Positions 1 through 45,350 of a stretch of DNA of 64,000 nt are shown here, piece after piece. The DNA comes from Escherichia phage PHB11. Location of the stretch: sequence record MK524176.1. One strand, 5' to 3'. Every line of letters starts with the position of its first letter. The first letter of the stretch is position 1. Position numbers and translations under genes: made by a program. Below the pieces are notes generated by a model. It had not been told where the DNA came from, did no database searches, and worked only from the letters and a program-made list of their open reading frames with translations.

Positions 1-735
1 TCTTTAAAATTAACTTGTTAGCTCTTGTTGGTCATCTGTTAAGCCTCTGTAAAGACTATTCAGCACTTGTTAGAAATCTGTTAAGCTCTTGTTAGTTCTG
101 TTAAGAAACTGTTAAGACCTCTGAAGAGATGTTAAGAGGATGTAGTAGCTGTTAAGAGATTGTTAAGGATATTTTAAAATTTTGCAAAGGGATGGTAAGG
201 GAGCTGTTAAGGGCTACCAAGCAGATATACATCCTAGACAGATATTTTTCAGTTCCTTCAAAGACCCTAAAAAACGACTTGATAGTCCTATTTTATAAAA
301 ATTTTAAAATTCTGAATAATTACCTAGACAGTCTTTTAAAAATACAGGCATAAACAGGCTTATAAGATACCTTGTTAGTACCGTGTTAGACCTTGTGAGA
401 TAAGGTCTGTAAAGATATTCCTGTTAAGTTTGTTAAAACAGTCTATATAGAGGCTTAGTAATACCTAGTGAACACCTATAGAGGGTAACATAGCTGACAT
501 AATGGGTTACTGTTAAGTAACACAGATAACCTAGAGATTAAGAGGTGTATAGGGGCTTCTAAGAGGGTGTAGAGTAATGGTTAAGGTGATTGTATAGGTT
601 GTTAAGAAGGCTTGTTAGAAGAGTGTTTAGAAGGGTTATACAGAGGGGCTATTAAGACCACTAGATAGATACTAAGATACTATATAGTACTATATAACTA
701 TATATAGAGAGTAAGCTTAAGAAGGTTGTTAAGAA
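1..735. repeat. Iteron-like array: about 12 TGTTAAG and 7 TTGTTAG heptamers, all in the same orientation, in an ORF-free region (window edge; may extend upstream)
   Basis: Direct reading: TGTTAAG at about 38,79,99,109,130,149,160,203,421,510,600,727; TTGTTAG-type at about 15,67,89,371,383,611,625. No ORF of 60 aa or more on either strand. Confidence 0.7.
676..708. repeat. Three ACTATATA copies at 10-bp spacing (AT-rich, DUE-like)
   Basis: ACTATATA at 679, 689 and 698, next to the heptamer array. Confidence 0.55.
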
Positions 736-2641: not shown

Positions 2642-3175
2642 CTATAATTGTAGGTTGCATTCTTTACTTACCTCTTCAAGCTTAACCTCAGAGTCCTTGA
2701 GTCGTTTCTTATGAACTCTGAATCTCATTAGTGCGATGATGATACCAACTAAAGGAACAGCATACAAGTACCAAACATCATATACCTTTGTAGTAATCTG
2801 TGTAATGGTCAAATCTTGAGCTATGGAACTGATTGCTGATACTGCCAGTAATGTTGCTAAGAAAAATGCCAGTACCATTACTGTACTTAAACAACCTCTG
2901 GCATGGTGTTCATGCTTAATACACTTATTCTTTTCGTCAACAACCCTGTTGTAGTCGTTTGTAAAGTCTCTGTAGAAAGCTTTCAAGTATTCTTTATTGT
3001 AGCCTTCAAAGCAACCTGTACCGTACCAATAATCACCGCCGAAATGTGCTATGATACCAGTTTCTCCGTTTGGTTTAGTTACTCTCAAAGATGTGTGATG
3101 ACGAGTATCTTGATAGTCTATTTTGTATCTTTCTTCGTAAATCATTTTCCAACCCCTCTCAATCGTTTGTTCCAC
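2642..3175 (-). CDS. Hypothetical membrane protein
   Basis: 177-aa ORF with hydrophobic segments (LAFFLATLLAVSAISSIA, AVPLVGIIIAL). Confidence 0.5.
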   Translation of the reverse strand: MEQTIERGWKMIYEERYKIDYQDTRHHTSLRVTKPNGETGIIAHFGGDYWYGTGCFEGYNKEYLKAFYRDFTNDYNRVVDEKNKCIKHEHHARGCLSTVMVLAFFLATLLAVSAISSIAQDLTITQITTKVYDVWYLYAVPLVGIIIALMRFRVHKKRLKDSEVKLEEVSKECNLQL

Positions 3176-3385: not shown

Positions 3386-3418
3386 AACTAAAAAGGGAAC
3401 TACCTCTCGATAGCTCCC
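3386..3418 (-). terminator. Candidate terminator hairpin
   Basis: Imperfect inverted repeat GGGAACTA/TAGCTCCC followed by T-run on the minus strand. Confidence 0.35.
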
Positions 3419-4369: not shown

Positions 4370-4655
4370 CGTTAAACTCTCTGACGAAGAAATAGTTGAC
4401 TTTATTATTACCTACCATAAGGTCAAAGCAGGTATTCTCAAAAGGTTTGTTGTAGGCATCATATGAAGTGTACGTATCAGCTACTTGTTTAGTGTTGAGC
4501 TTTTTACTTGATGGATTTAAGAGGCCACCATACAGTTTCTTGATAGCCTCTTCTACAACAGACCAGATGATTTCGTCAGTAATTTCTTCGTACAGGTCAA
4601 GTTCACGCTCTAGTGAGAAGTCACAAATAGGGAAAATAACCTGTACTTTACTCAT
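4362..4655 (-). CDS. Hypothetical protein
   Basis: 97-aa ORF. Confidence 0.45.
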   Translation of the reverse strand: MSKVQVIFPICDFSLERELDLYEEITDEIIWSVVEEAIKKLYGGLLNPSSKKLNTKQVADTYTSYDAYNKPFENTCFDLMVGNNKVNYFFVREFNDE

Positions 4656-5065
4656 TAACGAATAACCTGTGTGACTTGAATTGCTTCAGTTACGGACAAA
4701 TCACCTACTTTCTCTTCTTTGATAAAAGTGAAGGTGAGTTCAACAGGTTCTTCCTCTTCTTCTTCTTCTTCTTCTTGCTCAACTGGAACACCATTAAGCT
4801 CATCAAAGATTGATTGGGTTGTCCAGTCTTCACCACCATCTGGGTAGTGGATTGCGTAAAGTGGAAACTCTAAATTATACCAAGCAAAAACAGGGCAACC
4901 ATCTGCATCATCTCGACATCTGTGGAGATATGTGTTTGTGCCTTCAAAATGCAAATGGAGATTACCATTCTTCTCAAAGAGAAGAGCATCTTGCAGGTCT
5001 AGTTCCTCATTTTTGCTGTAACGGCTGACATCAACTTTAACGTGAATATGACTGTTATTATTCAT
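4655..5065 (-). CDS. Hypothetical protein with a poly-Glu tract
   Basis: 136-aa ORF containing EEEEEEEEEP. Confidence 0.5.
   Translation of the reverse strand: MNNNSHIHVKVDVSRYSKNEELDLQDALLFEKNGNLHLHFEGTNTYLHRCRDDADGCPVFAWYNLEFPLYAIHYPDGGEDWTTQSIFDELNGVPVEQEEEEEEEEEPVELTFTFIKEEKVGDLSVTEAIQVTQVIR
4749..4774. repeat. Trinucleotide repeat (CTT)n on plus, GAA on the coding strand
   Basis: TCTTCCTCTTCTTCTTCTTCTTCTTG read directly; encodes the poly-Glu run. Confidence 0.8.
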
Positions 5066-5469: not shown

Positions 5470-5498
5470 GAAAATAAAAAAGGCTCCCGAAGGAGCCT
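5470..5498 (-). terminator. Rho-independent terminator between the endolysin gene and 5058..5456
   Basis: AGGCTCC-CGAA-GGAGCCT hairpin with a T-run on the minus strand. Confidence 0.55.
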
Positions 5499-5507
5499 AT
5501 GAAGATA

Positions 5508-5972
5508 TTACTTTGGGTATACACTGTCAAGATAAATGTCAGCTTCCATTCTACGTCTGTTTTTCAGACCGTTTGAAGTGACCTTCTTACCTTTGACTGT
5601 AACCTTGTTCCACCACTGCATAGCTTCTGCACAACCTACCTTATTACCAGCATTGTGTCGCTTGATAAATGTAGAATCCTGCATAGCTGTGATACCGATG
5701 TTGTATGTTTCACTTACAAGTGCATCGAACTCATTCTGAGAGGTTGGAACCTTGATAGCTTTGTTCACTGCTGCAACAAACTTTTCAACATCTGCGAGAA
5801 GATACTGTTCAGCTTGCTCAGCAGTAATTTTCATACCCATCTTAACAGGTTTTCCGTCAATACGGATTGTACCATACCCGATTGTTGGGATTCCGGCAGA
5901 GTCTTCGTAAGCCTCTAACTTGAGACCTTCAAAGAACTTGATAGCTTCTAAACCTTTTCTTGAGAGTTGCAT
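5508..5972 (-). CDS. Endolysin, GH24 lysozyme family (T4 lysozyme / lambda R-like)
   Basis: N-terminal FEGLKLEAYEDSAGIPTIGYGT pattern with catalytic Glu, typical of GH24 phage lysozymes; 154 aa. Confidence 0.8.
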   Translation of the reverse strand: MQLSRKGLEAIKFFEGLKLEAYEDSAGIPTIGYGTIRIDGKPVKMGMKITAEQAEQYLLADVEKFVAAVNKAIKVPTSQNEFDALVSETYNIGITAMQDSTFIKRHNAGNKVGCAEAMQWWNKVTVKGKKVTSNGLKNRRRMEADIYLDSVYPK

Positions 5973-14182: not shown

Positions 14183-14740
14183 ATGAGATATTTGAAGTAT
14201 GCTTCATGGATTTTCCTAGCTTTGTTAGACCCATTGGCAGCAATCTTAGCAGTTATCTTAGCACCTTTCGTAGTTCCATTTTACAGTGAGAAGAAAGGAC
14301 ACTTACCTTTCGGATTTAGATGGATGGAAACTTATGACAACCCAATTGACGGTGATGAAGGTCATGTCAAACGATGGGCTAAGATTAGAAAGATTGGTAA
14401 GCTTGGTATCTATATGCAGAGAGTCGGTTGGCTCTGGAGAAACAAAGCTTATAACTTCTCCTACCATGTGTTAGGAAGAGATGTAAAAGATGTTACTAAG
14501 TGGAAAGGTAATATCAACGTAAGTTCTGACCCTGAAGATAATCAGACAGGTTATCTCTTAATGTGGAACAGTAATGCTTGGGGATTATTCGCTTTTATCC
14601 CATCAATTAAAGTCTTTGGTAAACAATTCTACTGGAGAATTTATGTTGGATGGAAACTTAAAAGTGTTGTCCCAGAAGAAAGAGCATTCTCAAGGGAAAG
14701 AGTTATGTTGACATTCTTTATTCATCCACTAAGAAAGTAA
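14183..14740 (+). CDS. Hypothetical membrane protein encoded inside the tRNA array
   Basis: 185-aa ORF, AAGAGG RBS, N-terminal hydrophobic segment IFLALLDPLAAILAVILAPFVVPF. Confidence 0.6.
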   Translation: MRYLKYASWIFLALLDPLAAILAVILAPFVVPFYSEKKGHLPFGFRWMETYDNPIDGDEGHVKRWAKIRKIGKLGIYMQRVGWLWRNKAYNFSYHVLGRDVKDVTKWKGNINVSSDPEDNQTGYLLMWNSNAWGLFAFIPSIKVFGKQFYWRIYVGWKLKSVVPEERAFSRERVMLTFFIHPLRK

Positions 14741-14748
14741 AGATTTAA

Positions 14749-14821
14749 AGGGGATTAGTTTACAAGGTTAAAACCTCGGTCTTTGAAATCGAAGAAGTTG
14801 GTTCAATTCCAACATCCCCCG
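14749..14821 (+). tRNA. tRNA-Gln (anticodon TTG)
   Basis: Acceptor AGGGGAT/ATCCCCC (1:72 mismatch), D-arm GTTT-ACAAGGTTA-AAAC, stem TCGGT/ATCGA, loop CTTTGAA, T-arm GTTGG-TTCAATT-CCAAC, CCA encoded. Confidence 0.6.
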
Positions 14822-14826
14822 CCAAT

Positions 14827-14902
14827 GCTCCATTACTCCAATTGGCAGAGAGGCCAGACTTAAAATCTGTGTTATGTATCGGTTCGAATCCGATATGGAG
14901 TA
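14827..14902 (+). tRNA. tRNA with anticodon TAA (Leu-type anticodon; no long variable arm in manual fold)
   Basis: Acceptor GCTCCAT/ATGGAGT, loop CTTAAAA, T-arm ATCGG-TTCGAAT-CCGAT, A73, CCA encoded; anticodon stem has one mismatch. Confidence 0.5.
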
Positions 14903-14910
14903 CCAAATTT

Positions 14911-14983
14911 AGCGGTATAGCATAACTGGCAATGCAGCAGTCTCTGAAGCTGTCTTATTAAGGTTCAAATCCTTATGCCGCTG
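14911..14983 (+). tRNA. tRNA-Gln (anticodon CTG)
   Basis: Acceptor AGCGGTA/TGCCGCT, D-arm GCAT-AACTGGCAA-TGC, loop CTCTGAA, T-arm TAAGG-TTCAAAT-CCTTA, CCA encoded. Confidence 0.6.
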
Positions 14984-15017
14984 CCACTTCTAAGGATTCT
15001 TACGAGAGTCCTTAAAT

Positions 15018-15090
15018 GTGGCCTTATCATAAATGGTAATGACCCATGCTGTGAACATGGTCTATACGGGTTCAAATCCCGTAGGTCACC
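15018..15090 (+). tRNA. tRNA-His (anticodon GTG)
   Basis: Acceptor GTGGCCT/AGGTCAC, stem CCATG/CATGG, loop CTGTGAA, T-arm ACGGG-TTCAAAT-CCCGT, C73, CCA encoded. Confidence 0.65.
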
Positions 15091-15098
15091 CCAATTTA

Positions 15099-15173
15099 TA
15101 GTCCAAGTAGCTTATATGGTTAAAGCGCGTGTCTGAAAAACATGAGAAGAGGGTTCAAATCCCACTGGACTAC
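15099..15173 (+). tRNA. tRNA-Phe (anticodon GAA)
   Basis: Acceptor TAGTCCA/TGGACTA (perfect), D-arm GCT-TATATGGTTAA-AGC, loop CTGAAAA, T-loop TTCAAAT. Confidence 0.6.
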
Positions 15174-15191
15174 CAATTTCAAAGGTGCTTA

Positions 15192-15926
15192 ATGAAAGAG
15201 ATGACAGAACAAGGTAAGGAGATTTTTAATCTCTTAAAAACCGGTAGAGGGTTTTCTAATCCCCTTATTACTGGTGCAGCAGTTCTCGGTGGAACCGTAG
15301 CTGCCTCTACATCACTTGTAAGCTCTATTAGCTCTGTAACAGACCCTACAATAAAGGATAAACTTGTTGCTGCTGGACTTACAACAGTTCTGCTTAACAG
15401 CTTTACAACGAGTCTGACAAGCACTACATCAACCACTAAAACACTGACAGATTACGGTCAAAAGTCCATTGCTGAGTTTTCATCACGTATGCAGGTAGCA
15501 AAAGGATATTCCAATGTTATGGGTGCAGCAGGAGAACAAGTCGGTTGTACACCATTTAGTGGTATTATGGGTGTTGCTACAGAATATGGTCAAAAAGCTA
15601 TTGACACGATTAACAGTACACTAGATAGTGTTAACGGTGTATTAAGTGACTTACAGGATGCTATTGATAAAGGTCTTGATACTATTTCTGATTTAGCTAA
15701 CCAAGCTGTTAGCAAGATTAATGAAGGTATCTCAAAGATTACAGCTTATGCAGATGAAGTTGTGCAGATGATTGAAGAAGAAGCTGCCCTTATTGCAGAG
15801 TACCTTAAAACAAATATCAATGGGTTCTTAGCAGGTATCTTACCAGACTGGTTTGACGATGCTTGTAAAACTGGTGTGATTGACACTATTGCAACACCAG
15901 AAATGAAGAACGCATTACAGAAATAA
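15192..15926 (+). CDS. Hypothetical protein (Ser/Thr-rich N-terminal region)
   Basis: ORF-track 15129 start lies inside tRNA-Phe; first ATG after the tRNA is 15192 with AAAGGTG RBS; 244 aa. Confidence 0.6.
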   Translation: MKEMTEQGKEIFNLLKTGRGFSNPLITGAAVLGGTVAASTSLVSSISSVTDPTIKDKLVAAGLTTVLLNSFTTSLTSTTSTTKTLTDYGQKSIAEFSSRMQVAKGYSNVMGAAGEQVGCTPFSGIMGVATEYGQKAIDTINSTLDSVNGVLSDLQDAIDKGLDTISDLANQAVSKINEGISKITAYADEVVQMIEEEAALIAEYLKTNINGFLAGILPDWFDDACKTGVIDTIATPEMKNALQK

Positions 15927-15927
15927 T

Positions 15928-16017
15928 GGAAGATTAACCCTAAAAGGTAAGGGAGCAGTTTGCTAAACTGCCAGTAGCTGAGAAATCGGTGTATCAGTTC
16001 AAGTCTGGTATCTTCCT
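15928..16017 (+). tRNA. tRNA-Ser (anticodon GCT), long variable arm
   Basis: Acceptor GGAAGAT/ATCTTCC, stem GCAGT/ACTGC, loop TTGCTAA, long variable arm, T-loop TTCAAGT, CCA encoded; 90 nt. Confidence 0.65.
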
Positions 16018-16024
16018 CCAATTT

Positions 16025-16097
16025 GAATCCGTGACAGAAATGGCTATGTGCCTGTCTGCAAAACAGGTTTATAAGGGTTCGAGTCCCTTCGGATTCT
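16025..16097 (+). tRNA. tRNA-Cys (anticodon GCA)
   Basis: Acceptor GAATCCG/CGGATTC (perfect), stem CCTGT/ACAGG, loop CTGCAAA, T-arm AAGGG-TTCGAGT-CCCTT, CCA encoded. Confidence 0.7.
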
Positions 16098-16138
16098 CCA
16101 AGTTATTTTACTCTCTCTCTCAATTAAAATAATAATAA

Positions 16139-35803: not shown

Positions 35804-36979
35804 ATGGCAGTAGGTGAAATTCAAATTAGTGCCTTGCCACAAGCGGCCTTACCAATTGATTTGAGTGATATCTTCCATCTTAAGCAAGGTGTTGAGGATA
35901 AAAGATGTACGCTTGAACAGTTGTTAGCACCTCACACATCTTTGAGGAATAACCCTCATGGTGTAACTAAATCGCAAGTTGGTCTTGATAATGTTATTAA
36001 CTCACTCCAATTGGTCGCAGCTAATAACTTGTCAGACATTGTAGATGTTGCTGAGGCAAGAGCAAATCTACAGATTATGTCGTCAGATGAAGTGAACAGT
36101 TTAATTCAGAGACATATCGACGACAAAAGTAACCCACACAATACAACGAAAGCACAGGTAGGGTTAAGTAATGTTCAGAACTGGACAACATCCAACTTAT
36201 ACAATGAAGATGCTGATAAATATGCTACCGCGAGAGCAGTGAATAATCTATACAAAGCTATCCAAGCATCATATCCAGTGGGGACTATTCATCTGTCTGT
36301 TAACTCTGCTAACCCATCCACTTACTTGCTTTGTGGAGGTACTTGGGAGTTGGTTTCTAAAGGTAGGGCGCTTGTTGGTTATGATACAGAAGCTAGACCT
36401 GTTGGTTCAACGTTCGGTTCTCAGACTGTAGCATTAACAAATAATAATTTACCAGCACACACCCACTCTATCTATTTAACAGGTGGTGGTCACACACACT
36501 CTGCAAGCGTATCTATCTCTAGTTTTGATTATGGTTCAAAAAGTACATCAACTTTTGATTACGGTACAAAAACGACTAATAGTGCTGGTGCTCACACTCA
36601 CACGTTTAGCGGCACGACAAGTAATGATGGTAACCATAACCATAGAGTACCACTGAGAGGTAATGATAGAAGTGGGGGGGATGCTATTACTGCATCTGCT
36701 TATGCTGGGGTTAATAATAATACGTATACTGATTTAGCAGGTGCTCACACCCATAGCTTCTCAGGCACAACTGCATCATCTGGTGCTCATAACCATACTG
36801 TTGCAATTGGTGCTCATAGCCACACTGTTAATATTGGTTCACACAGTCATACGGGTGCTGTTACTGTCTCTAGCTCTGAACATACACACTCAGGAACATC
36901 TGGTTCTGTTGGTGGTGGTCAAGCTTTCAGTGTTGAGCAGCCATCTTTTGTCGTATATGTATGGCAGAGAACAGCTTAA
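35804..36979 (+). CDS. Tail fiber protein with His-rich HxH repeats
   Basis: 391 aa; repeated HTHS/HNHT/HSHT motifs; C-terminus ...FSVEQPSFVVYVWQRTA resembles that of 37026..39395. Confidence 0.6.
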   Translation: MAVGEIQISALPQAALPIDLSDIFHLKQGVEDKRCTLEQLLAPHTSLRNNPHGVTKSQVGLDNVINSLQLVAANNLSDIVDVAEARANLQIMSSDEVNSLIQRHIDDKSNPHNTTKAQVGLSNVQNWTTSNLYNEDADKYATARAVNNLYKAIQASYPVGTIHLSVNSANPSTYLLCGGTWELVSKGRALVGYDTEARPVGSTFGSQTVALTNNNLPAHTHSIYLTGGGHTHSASVSISSFDYGSKSTSTFDYGTKTTNSAGAHTHTFSGTTSNDGNHNHRVPLRGNDRSGGDAITASAYAGVNNNTYTDLAGAHTHSFSGTTASSGAHNHTVAIGAHSHTVNIGSHSHTGAVTVSSSEHTHSGTSGSVGGGQAFSVEQPSFVVYVWQRTA

Positions 36980-43560: not shown

Positions 43561-43663
43561 AATAACCTCAAAGCTATATTAAATTTTGTATTACATTGAG
43601 TATAAAAATAGGCTATAACACCTGACTTGTCAACAGATTTTATAGCTTATTTGGCAGATTTTT

Positions 43664-43925
43664 TATAAGGCTACTGCCATCCTTCCATACATTACCTTAC
43701 CTTACCTCACCTGACCTGACCTGACCCTACCTAACATTACCGTGCCACACCTCACTTAAAAACCCTCTTAAAAGACTCTTAAGTGATGTAAGTCTCATTT
43801 TAATGTAGCTGAGACTAACTACCCATACCTGACCGAACATTACTAGGCCTTACCAGACACTACAGAACAGGACAGCACCGCACCTTATTAAAAGACCCTG
43901 TTTAAAGACCTTTTAAAAAGGAGCC
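43664..43925. repeat. Mosaic repeat region R1 (G-depleted ACC-rich pentamer tract, two conserved hairpins, AAAAG direct repeats)
   Basis: Shares 13-45-nt blocks with 45064..45350; pentamer tract 43692-43735; hairpins CACTTAA..TTAAGTG (43753-43785) and AGTCTCA..TGAGACT (43791-43816). Confidence 0.7.
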
Positions 43926-43948
43926 TCCGAAGAGGCTACCTAGTCAAC

Positions 43949-44389
43949 TTAGAAAGGTTTTCTACGTTGCTTGTTAATGTTAGCTTTCATAGCAGCTAAG
44001 TGGTTTTGCTGTTCAATCAGTCGTGAGCGTTCTTGATGGCTAAGTTCCATAGTGTTCACATTCTCAATAGCTTGAGTGGCTTGCTTTAAAGCTCGACCAA
44101 TCTTACCAGACATTTTACGTTTTGCAATAGTTGCTTGATGTTTAGGTTCAACCACACGATAACCAACACCCATTGAAGCAACCAGATAAATCTTCTCTTC
44201 TTTAAGAAGCTTCTCAATAAACTTCTCAAGTCGGTTTAGACGTGTAAGTGCATAAGCCTTCATTTCATCTTCGTACTTAACAATGTCGCCTTGATAAGTT
44301 GGCTTCACAATACCTAAGAAGGTGTCCATCTCAGAATGTGATACAGTGTCACCGTAACTAAACTTTGCTGCTAATGCTTTTGTATTCAT
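43949..44389 (-). CDS. Hypothetical protein (cassette gene 2)
   Basis: 146-aa ORF; C-terminal basic region. Confidence 0.55.
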   Translation of the reverse strand: MNTKALAAKFSYGDTVSHSEMDTFLGIVKPTYQGDIVKYEDEMKAYALTRLNRLEKFIEKLLKEEKIYLVASMGVGYRVVEPKHQATIAKRKMSGKIGRALKQATQAIENVNTMELSHQERSRLIEQQNHLAAMKANINKQRRKPF

Positions 44390-44391
44390 AA

Positions 44392-44997
<606 letters not shown>

Positions 44998-45063
44998 TTA
45001 GTTGATTGTTAAGTTGTTTGTAAAGAACCCTCAACAGAAGACTCTTTAGAAACTTGGTAGATT

Positions 45064-45350
45064 TTTAACGTGGCTACTACCATCCACCCATACCGTGCCA
45101 CACCACACCGGACTATACCATGCCCAACCCTACTACACCAGACCTTATTAAAAGACCCTCTTAAAAGACCTTTTAAAAAGGTAAGTCTCATTTTAATGTA
45201 GTTGAGACTAACTACCCATACCTTACCGCACCGGACATTACCGGACCGCACATCACCGCACCAAACCAAACATCACATTACCTGACCTCACCGCGCCTTA
45301 CCATACCTCACTTAAAAACCCCTCTTAAAGATTCTTAAGTGATGCTGGTG
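45064..45350. repeat. Mosaic repeat region R2 (same blocks as R1 in a different order)
   Basis: Blocks: GGCTACTACCATCC, ACCGTGCCACACC, hairpin AGTCTCA..TGAGACT (45184-45209), hairpin CACTTAA..TTAAGTG (45309-45341), TTATTAAAAGACCCTCTTAAAAGACCTTTTAAAAAGG; strongly G-depleted plus strand. Confidence 0.7.

What the first reader, a model, noticed from the sequence alone, without database searches (positions are those of the whole stretch)
4749..4774. In-frame (GAA)n microsatellite encoding a poly-Glu tract
A (CTT)6-8 tract on the plus strand encodes nine consecutive Glu in the 136-aa protein at 4655..5065. Triplet repeats expand and contract by slippage without breaking the frame, so the tract length may vary between isolates.
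Basis: seen in the sequence. Interest (0 to 1): 0.2.

Follow-up and report, generated by a model that had tools for sequence, protein, structure and literature searches.

The report
Variable poly-Glu codon repeat in phage gene
A run of GAA codons in a small Felix O1-like phage gene of unknown function really does differ in length between related phages, but it is an ordinary in-frame repeat polymorphism in a floppy linker, not a switch.

Summary
The window is a Felixounavirus (Felix O1-like) genome. The minus-strand gene 4655..5065 (136 aa, PHROG 4348, unknown function) carries nine Glu codons at 4748..4774, read as (GAA)6 GAG GAA GAA. This is the only period-3 array and the only 20-nt-or-longer purine/pyrimidine run in the 64 kb.

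In 40 related loci and 120 protein clusters, every Felix O1-type allele fits GTT GAG CAA (GAA)n [marker] CCT. The pure GAA run ranges from 1 to 9 units in whole codons, and the reading frame is intact at the tract in every allele. Four allele series, told apart by their 3' marker codons, each show their own length ladder, so the length has changed many times. A nested 9-nt unit (GAG CAA GAA) also occurs in 1, 2 or 3 copies.

Relatives about 2% diverged carry 4 Glu instead of 9. The near-identical isolate pairs I looked at appear to share one length, and no ≥99%-identical pair with different lengths was found. I therefore see moderate mutability, not contingency-locus behaviour. AlphaFold2 places the tract in a low-confidence linker between a β-rich N-domain and a C-terminal β-hairpin. 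The "D-Ala-D-Ala carboxypeptidase" label in some records is unsupported. Overall interest is low.

The parts
4655..5065 (-). CDS of 136 aa, acidic (pI 4.3), member of PHROG 4348 (unknown function). It is the ortholog of Felix O1 p066. It overlaps the upstream gene by 8 nt and the downstream gene by 1 nt (TAATG).
   Evidence: ORF. phrog_4348 at E = 9.5e-74. 127 homologues including Felix01p066. Synonymous to nonsynonymous codon differences are 417:113 against 23 orthologs. pI.
4748..4774 (-). Nine consecutive Glu codons (E98-E106): (GAA)6 GAG GAA GAA.
   Evidence: Sequence read. Codon parsing. TRF period-3 array.
4757..4774 (-). Pure (GAA)6 run. This is the part whose copy number differs among relatives (n = 1 to 9).
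   Evidence: Allele table from 40 loci. Length changes map only here.
4754..4756 (-). GAG interruption codon. It is retained in allele series A and B as a fixed 3' marker of the GAA run.
4775..4780 (-). GAG CAA (E96 Q97), the invariant 5' anchor of the repeat. Together with the first GAA it forms the 9-nt unit GAG CAA GAA, found in 1, 2 or 3 copies in other alleles.
   Evidence: L039 x1; L005 and others x2; L002, L004, L014, L020, L029 and L033 x3. The warpig record annotates a repeat_region here.
4748..4776 (+). 29-nt pure pyrimidine run (purine on the coding strand). It is the only run of 20 nt or more in the window.
4748..4780 (-). Residues 96-106, predicted to be a disordered acidic linker (pLDDT below 50).
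   Evidence: AlphaFold2 model m149f8b5e3277.
4796..5050 (-). Residues 6-90: a β-rich N-terminal domain (strands between residues 6 and 73) followed by helix 83-90. The first ~55 residues are mosaic across Ounavirinae; residues ~55-94 are nearly invariant.
4661..4744 (-). Residues 108-135: a C-terminal β-hairpin (TFTF...VTEAIQVTQVI) that is nearly invariant.

Best explanation
This is a coding trinucleotide microsatellite. A run of GAA codons arose inside a short (GAG CAA GAA)2 motif and gains or loses whole codons. The likely cause is strand slippage during phage DNA replication, possibly helped by unequal recombination. Because the unit is one codon, every change only lengthens or shortens a poly-Glu stretch.

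That stretch lies in a predicted flexible, acidic linker joining the conserved β-rich N-terminal domain of a 136-aa Ounavirinae protein of unknown function to its conserved C-terminal β-hairpin. The linker tolerates about 7 to 18 residues, so most length changes are probably nearly neutral, and different lineages have drifted to different lengths. The window carries one of the long alleles, with 9 Glu and n = 6.

Shown here: the tract, its non-random nature, codon-unit length variation confined to the pure run, recurrence in several haplotype backgrounds, and an intact frame at the tract. Inferred: slippage as the molecular cause, disorder of the linker (a model only), and near-neutrality.
For: (1) The tract is real and non-random.

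(2) All 36 Felix O1-type loci (of 40) fit GTT GAG CAA (GAA)n + marker + CCT. Series A (marker GAG CAA GAR) has n = 1, 2, 3, 6, 7 and 9. Series B (GAG GAA GAA) has n = 1, 3, 4, 5 and 6. Series C (pure GAA) has 4, 5 and 6 codons. Series D is (GAA)7 GCG GAA GAA. Protein clusters fill in the ladders.

(3) Every extra codon is GAA, although only 65% of Glu codons in the window are GAA. With at least 21 nested inserted codons, the chance of that is about 0.65^21, or roughly 1e-4 (my arithmetic).

(4) All seven series B alleles share a 3' 81-nt segment with 0-2 differences from the window, yet n runs from 1 to 6. Length therefore changes faster than the adjacent sequence.

(5) The closest genes outside the tract, Shy (7/363 differences) and JN01 (8/363), have 4 Glu. 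S19cd (11/363) has the identical 9-Glu tract.

(6) No allele among the 120 clusters and 40 loci is frameshifted at the tract.

(7) In the AF2 model, residues 96-106 have pLDDT below 50 and sit between structured parts. More distant orthologs have a non-repetitive acidic linker of 9-12 residues at the same place.

(8) The gene is under purifying selection (417 synonymous against 113 nonsynonymous codon differences).
Against: No direct measure of mutation rate exists, because no read-level data are available. No pair of genomes at 99% identity or above with different tract lengths was found. Near-identical isolates match over the same gene length, and the window and S19cd share the exact allele despite 11 substitutions in the gene. 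The rate is therefore modest.

The flank tree is blurred by mosaic recombination. Some alleles may therefore have spread by recombination rather than arising anew. Neutrality is assumed, not tested. The short allele (131 aa) dominates, with a cluster of 382 members. That could reflect selection against long tracts or simply a contraction bias. The structural model is of only moderate confidence (mean pLDDT 69.6).
Confidence: 0.8

Rival explanations
1. Adaptive tuning. The poly-Glu length is a selected 'tuning knob' that sets the spacing or charge of an acidic phage protein binding a host or defence target. Slippage then supplies rapid heritable variation that selection sorts by host.
For: The protein is strongly acidic (pI 4.3, 31 D+E against 9 K+R). 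It has conserved structured parts on both sides of the tract. Many alleles coexist across E. coli, Salmonella and Shigella phages.
Against: No pattern by host is visible in the records seen. Nine-Glu alleles occur in a Salmonella phage and in an E. coli-associated record, and short alleles occur everywhere. The short allele dominates. Distant orthologs keep a fixed-length non-repetitive linker. No known function or partner exists, and there are no PADLOC, Pfam, NCBIfam or PDB matches.
Confidence: 0.08
2. Recombination, not replication slippage. Length alleles arise by unequal homologous recombination within the repeat and are then shuffled between mosaic phage genomes. The ladders would then reflect few origins and much exchange.
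For: The gene is visibly mosaic. The N-terminal ~55 codons come in Felix O1-like and Moogle-like versions joined to the same C-terminal half. Series B alleles with n = 4-5 sit behind the Moogle-like N-terminus yet share the window's 3' segment (1-2 differences). Window and S19cd differ at 11 sites 5' of the tract and at none 3' of it. Expanded alleles are scattered on the flank tree.
Against: Exchange alone cannot create new n values. Each of four marker-defined series has its own ladder, so unit changes must have occurred repeatedly. With 3-nt units and tracts of at most 27 nt, there is little homology for RecA-type unequal crossing-over. Sequence data cannot separate the two mechanisms, and they are not mutually exclusive.
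Confidence: 0.2
3. Artefact. The length differences are sequencing or assembly errors at a low-complexity site.
For: Many of the variant alleles come from short-read metagenome or Logan assemblies.
Against: The tract is at most 27-30 nt, well within a single read. All differences are exact multiples of 3 with marker codons preserved. The same alleles recur in independent finished genomes from different laboratories, for example the x3 9-nt allele in warpig, JohannRWettstein and TH10, and n = 3 in RPN213 and HK3. P0003 is seen on 8 contigs and P0015 on 20.
Confidence: 0.02
4. Nucleic-acid-level function. The 29-nt polypurine·polypyrimidine tract acts as DNA or RNA, for example as a triplex/H-DNA former, a replication or transcription pause site, or an internal Shine-Dalgarno-like pause (GAGGAA). 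The Glu run would then be a by-product.
For: It is the only R/Y run of 20 nt or more in the window. GAA·TTC repeats are known triplex formers when long (established knowledge, Friedreich ataxia FXN repeats).
Against: The common allele in the family has only a short tract interrupted by CAA, and distant orthologs have none. A conserved nucleic-acid role is therefore unlikely. The tract is far shorter than those that form stable triplexes. It lies 90 nt from the next start codon, so it is not a ribosome-binding site.
Confidence: 0.03

Closest known systems
Coding simple-sequence repeats that give single-amino-acid repeats (SAARs), including D/E repeats
   Same: A tandem trinucleotide repeat inside an ORF encodes a homopolymeric acidic run. 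Length is polymorphic in codon units. It lies in a low-complexity, predicted disordered segment. The abstracts of PMC5125637 and PMC9672403, as listed, describe this class, and the latter describes instability of D/E repeat-coding regions.
   Different: Here it is in a lytic phage genome of about 86-90 kb that otherwise lacks such repeats. The tract is short (at most 10 Glu seen) and is nested in a second 9-nt repeat.
Bacterial contingency loci (SSR-mediated phase variation, e.g. Haemophilus and Neisseria tetranucleotide or homopolymer tracts)
   Same: The presumed mutational mechanism is the same: slipped-strand mispairing at a short tandem repeat, giving a multi-allelic locus.
   Different: The unit is 3 nt and in frame, so no ON/OFF switching occurs and every allele keeps the ORF at the tract. 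No sign of hypermutability was seen among near-identical isolates.
GAA·TTC expansion at FXN (Friedreich ataxia)
   Same: The repeat motif and the polypurine·polypyrimidine character are the same.
   Different: That repeat is intronic, reaches hundreds of units and acts through triplex or heterochromatin silencing. Here there are 1-9 coding units with no evidence for any DNA-structure effect.
Felix O1 p066 / PHROG 4348 family of Ounavirinae hypothetical proteins
   Same: The window's protein is a full-length member (E = 9.5e-74; 85% identical to Felix01p066). Gene order is the same: endolysin, a 132-aa gene, this gene, then 97-aa, 114-aa and 193-aa genes.
   Different: Felix O1 itself has the short linker VEQEEQEPVE (131 aa). 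The window has five more GAA codons and a CAA-to-GAA change.

Membership tests
Coding trinucleotide microsatellite with slippage-type length polymorphism | Perfect tandem repetition of a 1-6 nt unit, longer than composition predicts | tested here: met
   Seven perfect period-3 units (4755..4775). Simulations give at most 4 units, and it is the only period-3 TRF array in the window.
Coding trinucleotide microsatellite with slippage-type length polymorphism | Alleles among related genomes differ by whole repeat units, within the pure part of the tract, with flanks and interruptions retained | tested here: met
   n = 1-9 GAA across 36 Felix O1-type loci, with GAG/CAA/GCG markers fixed and all added codons GAA.
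Coding trinucleotide microsatellite with slippage-type length polymorphism | Recurrent, independent length changes (homoplasy) | tested here: met
   Four marker-defined series each have their own ladder. Series B shares one 3' haplotype with n = 1, 3, 4, 5 and 6.
Coding trinucleotide microsatellite with slippage-type length polymorphism | Elevated per-generation indel rate, seen as within-population length heterogeneity | not testable with these tools
   No read data are available. Indirectly, no pair at 99% identity or above differs in length.
Phase-variable contingency locus | A change in repeat number switches expression on and off, through a frameshift or altered promoter spacing | tested here: not met
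   The unit is one codon inside the ORF. All alleles keep the frame at the tract.
D-alanyl-D-alanine carboxypeptidase (the label on this gene in warpig, BPS17L1 and other records) | Match to a peptidase family profile (M15/VanY, S11, S13) | tested here: not met
   No Pfam hit at E ≤ 0.01, no NCBIfam hit at E ≤ 10, and no PDB sequence hit with the family profile at E ≤ 1.
D-alanyl-D-alanine carboxypeptidase (the label on this gene in warpig, BPS17L1 and other records) | Conserved catalytic or metal-binding residues (H..D..H, or Ser-x-x-Lys) | tested here: not met
   H6, H8, H37 and H39 of the window protein are replaced (by Q/K/I/P and by R/S/F/L) in family members. No invariant His, Ser or Lys appears among the invariant columns of the 38-sequence alignment.
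D-alanyl-D-alanine carboxypeptidase (the label on this gene in warpig, BPS17L1 and other records) | Peptidase fold | tested here: not met
   [not shown]
PHROG 4348 (Ounavirinae protein of unknown function) | Full-length match to the family profile | tested here: met
   E = 9.5e-74, residues 3-136 against profile positions 1-129 of 129.
Intrinsically disordered acidic linker | Low predicted order, low complexity, and tolerance of length and sequence change between conserved domains | tested here: met
   pLDDT is below 50 for residues 96-106. Linker length is 7-18 residues across the family, with flanking columns invariant. This is a prediction only; there is no experimental structure.

The most novel reading that the evidence does not exclude
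The GAA tract could be a selected evolvability device. By slipping, it would tune the length and charge of the spacer in an acidic (pI 4.3) phage protein that engages a host or anti-phage target. Felix O1-like phages would then carry a built-in, reversible 'rheostat' for host adaptation, an in-frame analogue of bacterial contingency loci in a lytic phage.
Probability: 0.05. Interest if true: 0.5.

Novelty: new member of a known kind. Interest (0 to 1): 0.12.

Why it matters
The significance is small. The tract is a clean, well-resolved example of a microsatellite being born inside a phage gene, going from (GAG CAA GAA)2 to (GAA)n, with interruptions acting as haplotype markers.

In practice it is a cheap multi-allelic typing marker for Felixounavirus isolates, which are widely used in Salmonella and E. 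coli biocontrol. It is also a site where assemblies and variant callers should expect genuine 3-nt indels.

The work also shows that the "D-alanyl-D-alanine carboxypeptidase" label propagated on this gene in several GenBank records has no support. Nothing here suggests a new mechanism.

Tried and rejected

(2) The peptidase idea. HxxxD and HxH-like strings in the window protein looked LAS/M23-like from memory. I rejected this because those histidines are not conserved in the family.

(4) The flank-based NJ tree. Expanded alleles are scattered, but mosaic recombination makes the tree unreliable for counting events. I used marker-defined allele series instead.

(5) Exact look-up of the window's protein in the public collection found nothing on record.

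(6) Two literature searches found nothing specific to this gene or tract.

(7) Alternative-frame ORFs across the tract on the + strand (poly-Phe and poly-Ser). I dismissed these as by-products of the repeat.

Full report
**What is there.** On the + strand, 4748..4774 reads TTC TTC CTC (TTC)6. The only long ORF covering it is on the minus strand, 4655..5065 (136 aa). In that frame the tract is GAA x6, GAG, GAA, GAA, which encodes Glu98-Glu106. It is preceded by GTT GAG CAA (V95 E96 Q97) and followed by CCT GTT GAA (P107 V E). Several measures show the tract is not a chance feature:
- TRF reports it as the only period-3 array in the 64 kb.
- The perfect period-3 run has 7 units (4755..4775), against a maximum of 4 elsewhere in the window and in 200 Markov simulations.
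- It is the only amino-acid homopolymer of 5 or more residues in the 60 ORFs of at least 120 aa.
- It is the only purine/pyrimidine run of 20 nt or more (29 nt).

**Context.** The window is a Felix O1-like myovirus (Ounavirinae, Felixounavirus). The gene matches 186 phage records, the best being Salmonella phage S19cd at 97.3%. The window also carries a block of 26 tRNA genes. The gene lies in a run of tightly packed, overlapping minus-strand genes just downstream of the endolysin (5508..5972, Phage_lysozyme E = 6.6e-41). This run is bounded by terminator-like hairpins at 5498..5481 and 3418..3395, which are consensus matches only. The protein belongs to PHROG 4348, of unknown function (E = 9.5e-74), and is the ortholog of Felix01p066. 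It is a real gene: across 23 orthologs of the same architecture, codon differences from the window are 417 synonymous against 113 nonsynonymous, and the C-terminal two-thirds is nearly invariant across three genera.

**Does the length vary?** Yes. The 60 GenBank records listed match over 396 nt (45 records), 399 (6), 402 (4), 405 (3) or 411 (2). I extracted the linker between the conserved ELNGVP and TFTF motifs from 120 protein clusters. It is VEQ(E)nQEPVE with n = 2-8 and 10, VEQ(E)nPVE with n = 1, 3, 4, 6 and 9, VEQ(E)nAEEPVE with n = 3, 4 and 6, or VEQEEQEEQEPVE. The commonest form is VEQEEQEPVE (131 aa, Felix O1 itself; one cluster alone has 382 members).

**DNA-level anatomy.** I examined 40 loci, and every Felix O1-type allele fits GTT GAG CAA (GAA)n [marker] CCT. 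Four series can be told apart by the marker:

| Series | 3' marker | n observed (example loci) |
|---|---|---|
| B | GAG GAA GAA | 1 (Shy), 3 (E9), 4 (L021, L024), 5 (L022), 6 (window, S19cd) |
| C | none (pure GAA) | 4 (JN01), 5 (UAB_Phi87), 6 (L037) |
| D | GCG GAA GAA | 7 (L017) |

All added codons are GAA, although only 65% of Glu codons in the window are GAA. For at least 21 nested added codons that is about 1e-4 by chance (my arithmetic). This argues that the codons arose by copying the neighbouring unit.

The common allele, GAG CAA GAA GAG CAA GAA, is itself a tandem pair of a 9-nt unit. The unit occurs once in the 128-aa allele (L039). It occurs three times in warpig, JohannRWettstein, TH10 and others, and the warpig record annotates a repeat_region there. 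The locus therefore has two nested repeat modes, and the GAA microsatellite was born inside the 9-nt motif. The window's allele is Shy's allele plus five GAA codons. Series B as a whole differs from series A by one CAA-to-GAA change.

**How often and how fast?**
- Each marker-defined series has its own ladder, so unit changes happened many times. I count at least about 16 from the distinct n values per series.
- All seven series B alleles share a 3' 81-nt segment with 0-2 differences from the window, yet n runs from 1 to 6. The tract therefore changes faster than the adjacent sequence.
- Outside the tract, the closest genes are Shy (7/363 differences, 4 Glu) and JN01 (8/363, 4 Glu). S19cd (11/363) has the identical 9-Glu tract.
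- My reading is a moderately mutable microsatellite, multi-allelic at the genus level, and not a hypermutable contingency locus.

The flank-based tree scatters expanded alleles. The gene is mosaic, with a Moogle-like N-terminal third joined to the same C-terminal part. Recombination has therefore also moved alleles around.

**What the tract does to the protein.** An AlphaFold2 model built on 38 homologues has moderate confidence (mean pLDDT 69.6). It has a β-rich N-terminal domain (strands between residues 6 and 73), a helix (83-90), a segment with pLDDT below 50 at residues 96-106, and a C-terminal β-hairpin (108-135). The low-confidence segment is exactly E96 Q97 plus the nine Glu. More distant orthologs (Mooglevirus and Suspvirus types) have a non-repetitive acidic linker of 9-12 residues at that place, for example LEDEVTEPTL or VEQEVEKEPVE. 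The family-wide linker range is 7-18 residues, with the flanking columns invariant. The simplest reading is a flexible acidic spacer whose exact length matters little. The protein is acidic overall (pI 4.3, or 4.6 without the nine Glu).

**What the protein is not.** Several records call it a D-alanyl-D-alanine carboxypeptidase. Nothing supports that label:
- There are no Pfam, NCBIfam or PDB-sequence matches.
- The histidines that look like metal-ligand motifs in the window protein are not conserved.
- BFVD returns only an ortholog.
- There are no PADLOC matches.

The function remains unknown.

**Mechanism and rivals.** The best explanation (confidence about 0.8) is slipped-strand mispairing at the pure GAA run. 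It generates in-frame gains and losses of Glu in a tolerant linker, with largely neutral consequences.
- Adaptive tuning of linker length (0.08) is not excluded, but no host pattern is visible and the short allele dominates.
- Unequal recombination and allele shuffling (0.2) probably contribute. They cannot be separated from slippage by sequence alone, and they cannot on their own explain four independent ladders.
- Assembly artefact (0.02) is excluded in practice, because the same alleles appear in independent finished genomes and all differences are exact codon multiples.
- A DNA- or RNA-level role for the polypurine tract (0.03) is unlikely, because most family members lack a long tract.

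**Verdict.** This is an ordinary coding microsatellite, a new member of a known kind. It is useful mainly as a strain marker and as a tidy example of microsatellite birth. Interest is low.

Noticed in passing
[not shown]
   Followed up: partly
window 43577..45262, especially 43688..43741: A pentanucleotide array (TACCT) of about 10.8 copies, together with a cluster of 12-15 nt tandem repeats (ACCTTATTAAAAG, AGACCTTATTAAA, TTACCGCACCGCACA). This looks like a repeat-rich, possibly regulatory or origin-like, intergenic region.
   Followed up: no
window 16..105 and 36770..36838: A 22-nt tandem repeat (about 3.8 copies) at the very start of the window, and a 27-nt-period repeat (about 2.1 copies) at 36.8 kb, probably coding.
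   Followed up: no
window 10515..16100 (+): A block of 26 tRNA genes, including tRNA-Glu(UUC) at 10599..10676, which reads the GAA codons of the tract.
   Followed up: no
GU169904.1, 141004..141399 (hit H6): The record named 'Staphylococcus phage SA1' (147 kb) carries this Felix O1-type gene at 93.7% identity. The host label or the assembly of that record looks inconsistent with an enterobacterial phage module.
   Followed up: no
window 4655..5065 orthologs in warpig, BPS17L1, ESCO45, finno, Si3 and others: The annotation 'D-alanyl-D-alanine carboxypeptidase' is propagated across many GenBank records for this gene without support from profiles, conserved residues or fold.
   Followed up: yes
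window 4904..5065 (N-terminal ~55 codons of the gene); L016-L025: The N-terminal third of the protein exists in at least two diverged versions (MNNNSHIHVKVDVSRYS... and MNKDVRDIQVKVDTFGHDG...) joined to a nearly identical C-terminal part. This points to a recombination junction inside the gene. Homologue P0063 also has an internal duplication, GCPVFGCPVF.
   Followed up: partly
window 2642..3175 (-): A 177-aa ORF with two hydrophobic stretches near its C-terminus (…VMVLAFFLATLLAVSAISSIA… and …LYAVPLVGIIIALMRF…). It is a possible membrane protein a few genes downstream of the endolysin. A lysis role was not examined.
   Followed up: no
P0053 (119 aa homologue): One homologue cluster ends in a frameshifted tail (…TFTSSKKRKLVICL) just after the linker, near the A-rich AAA GAA GAA AAA stretch and not at the GAA tract. 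It may be a sequencing error or a genuine truncation.
   Followed up: no
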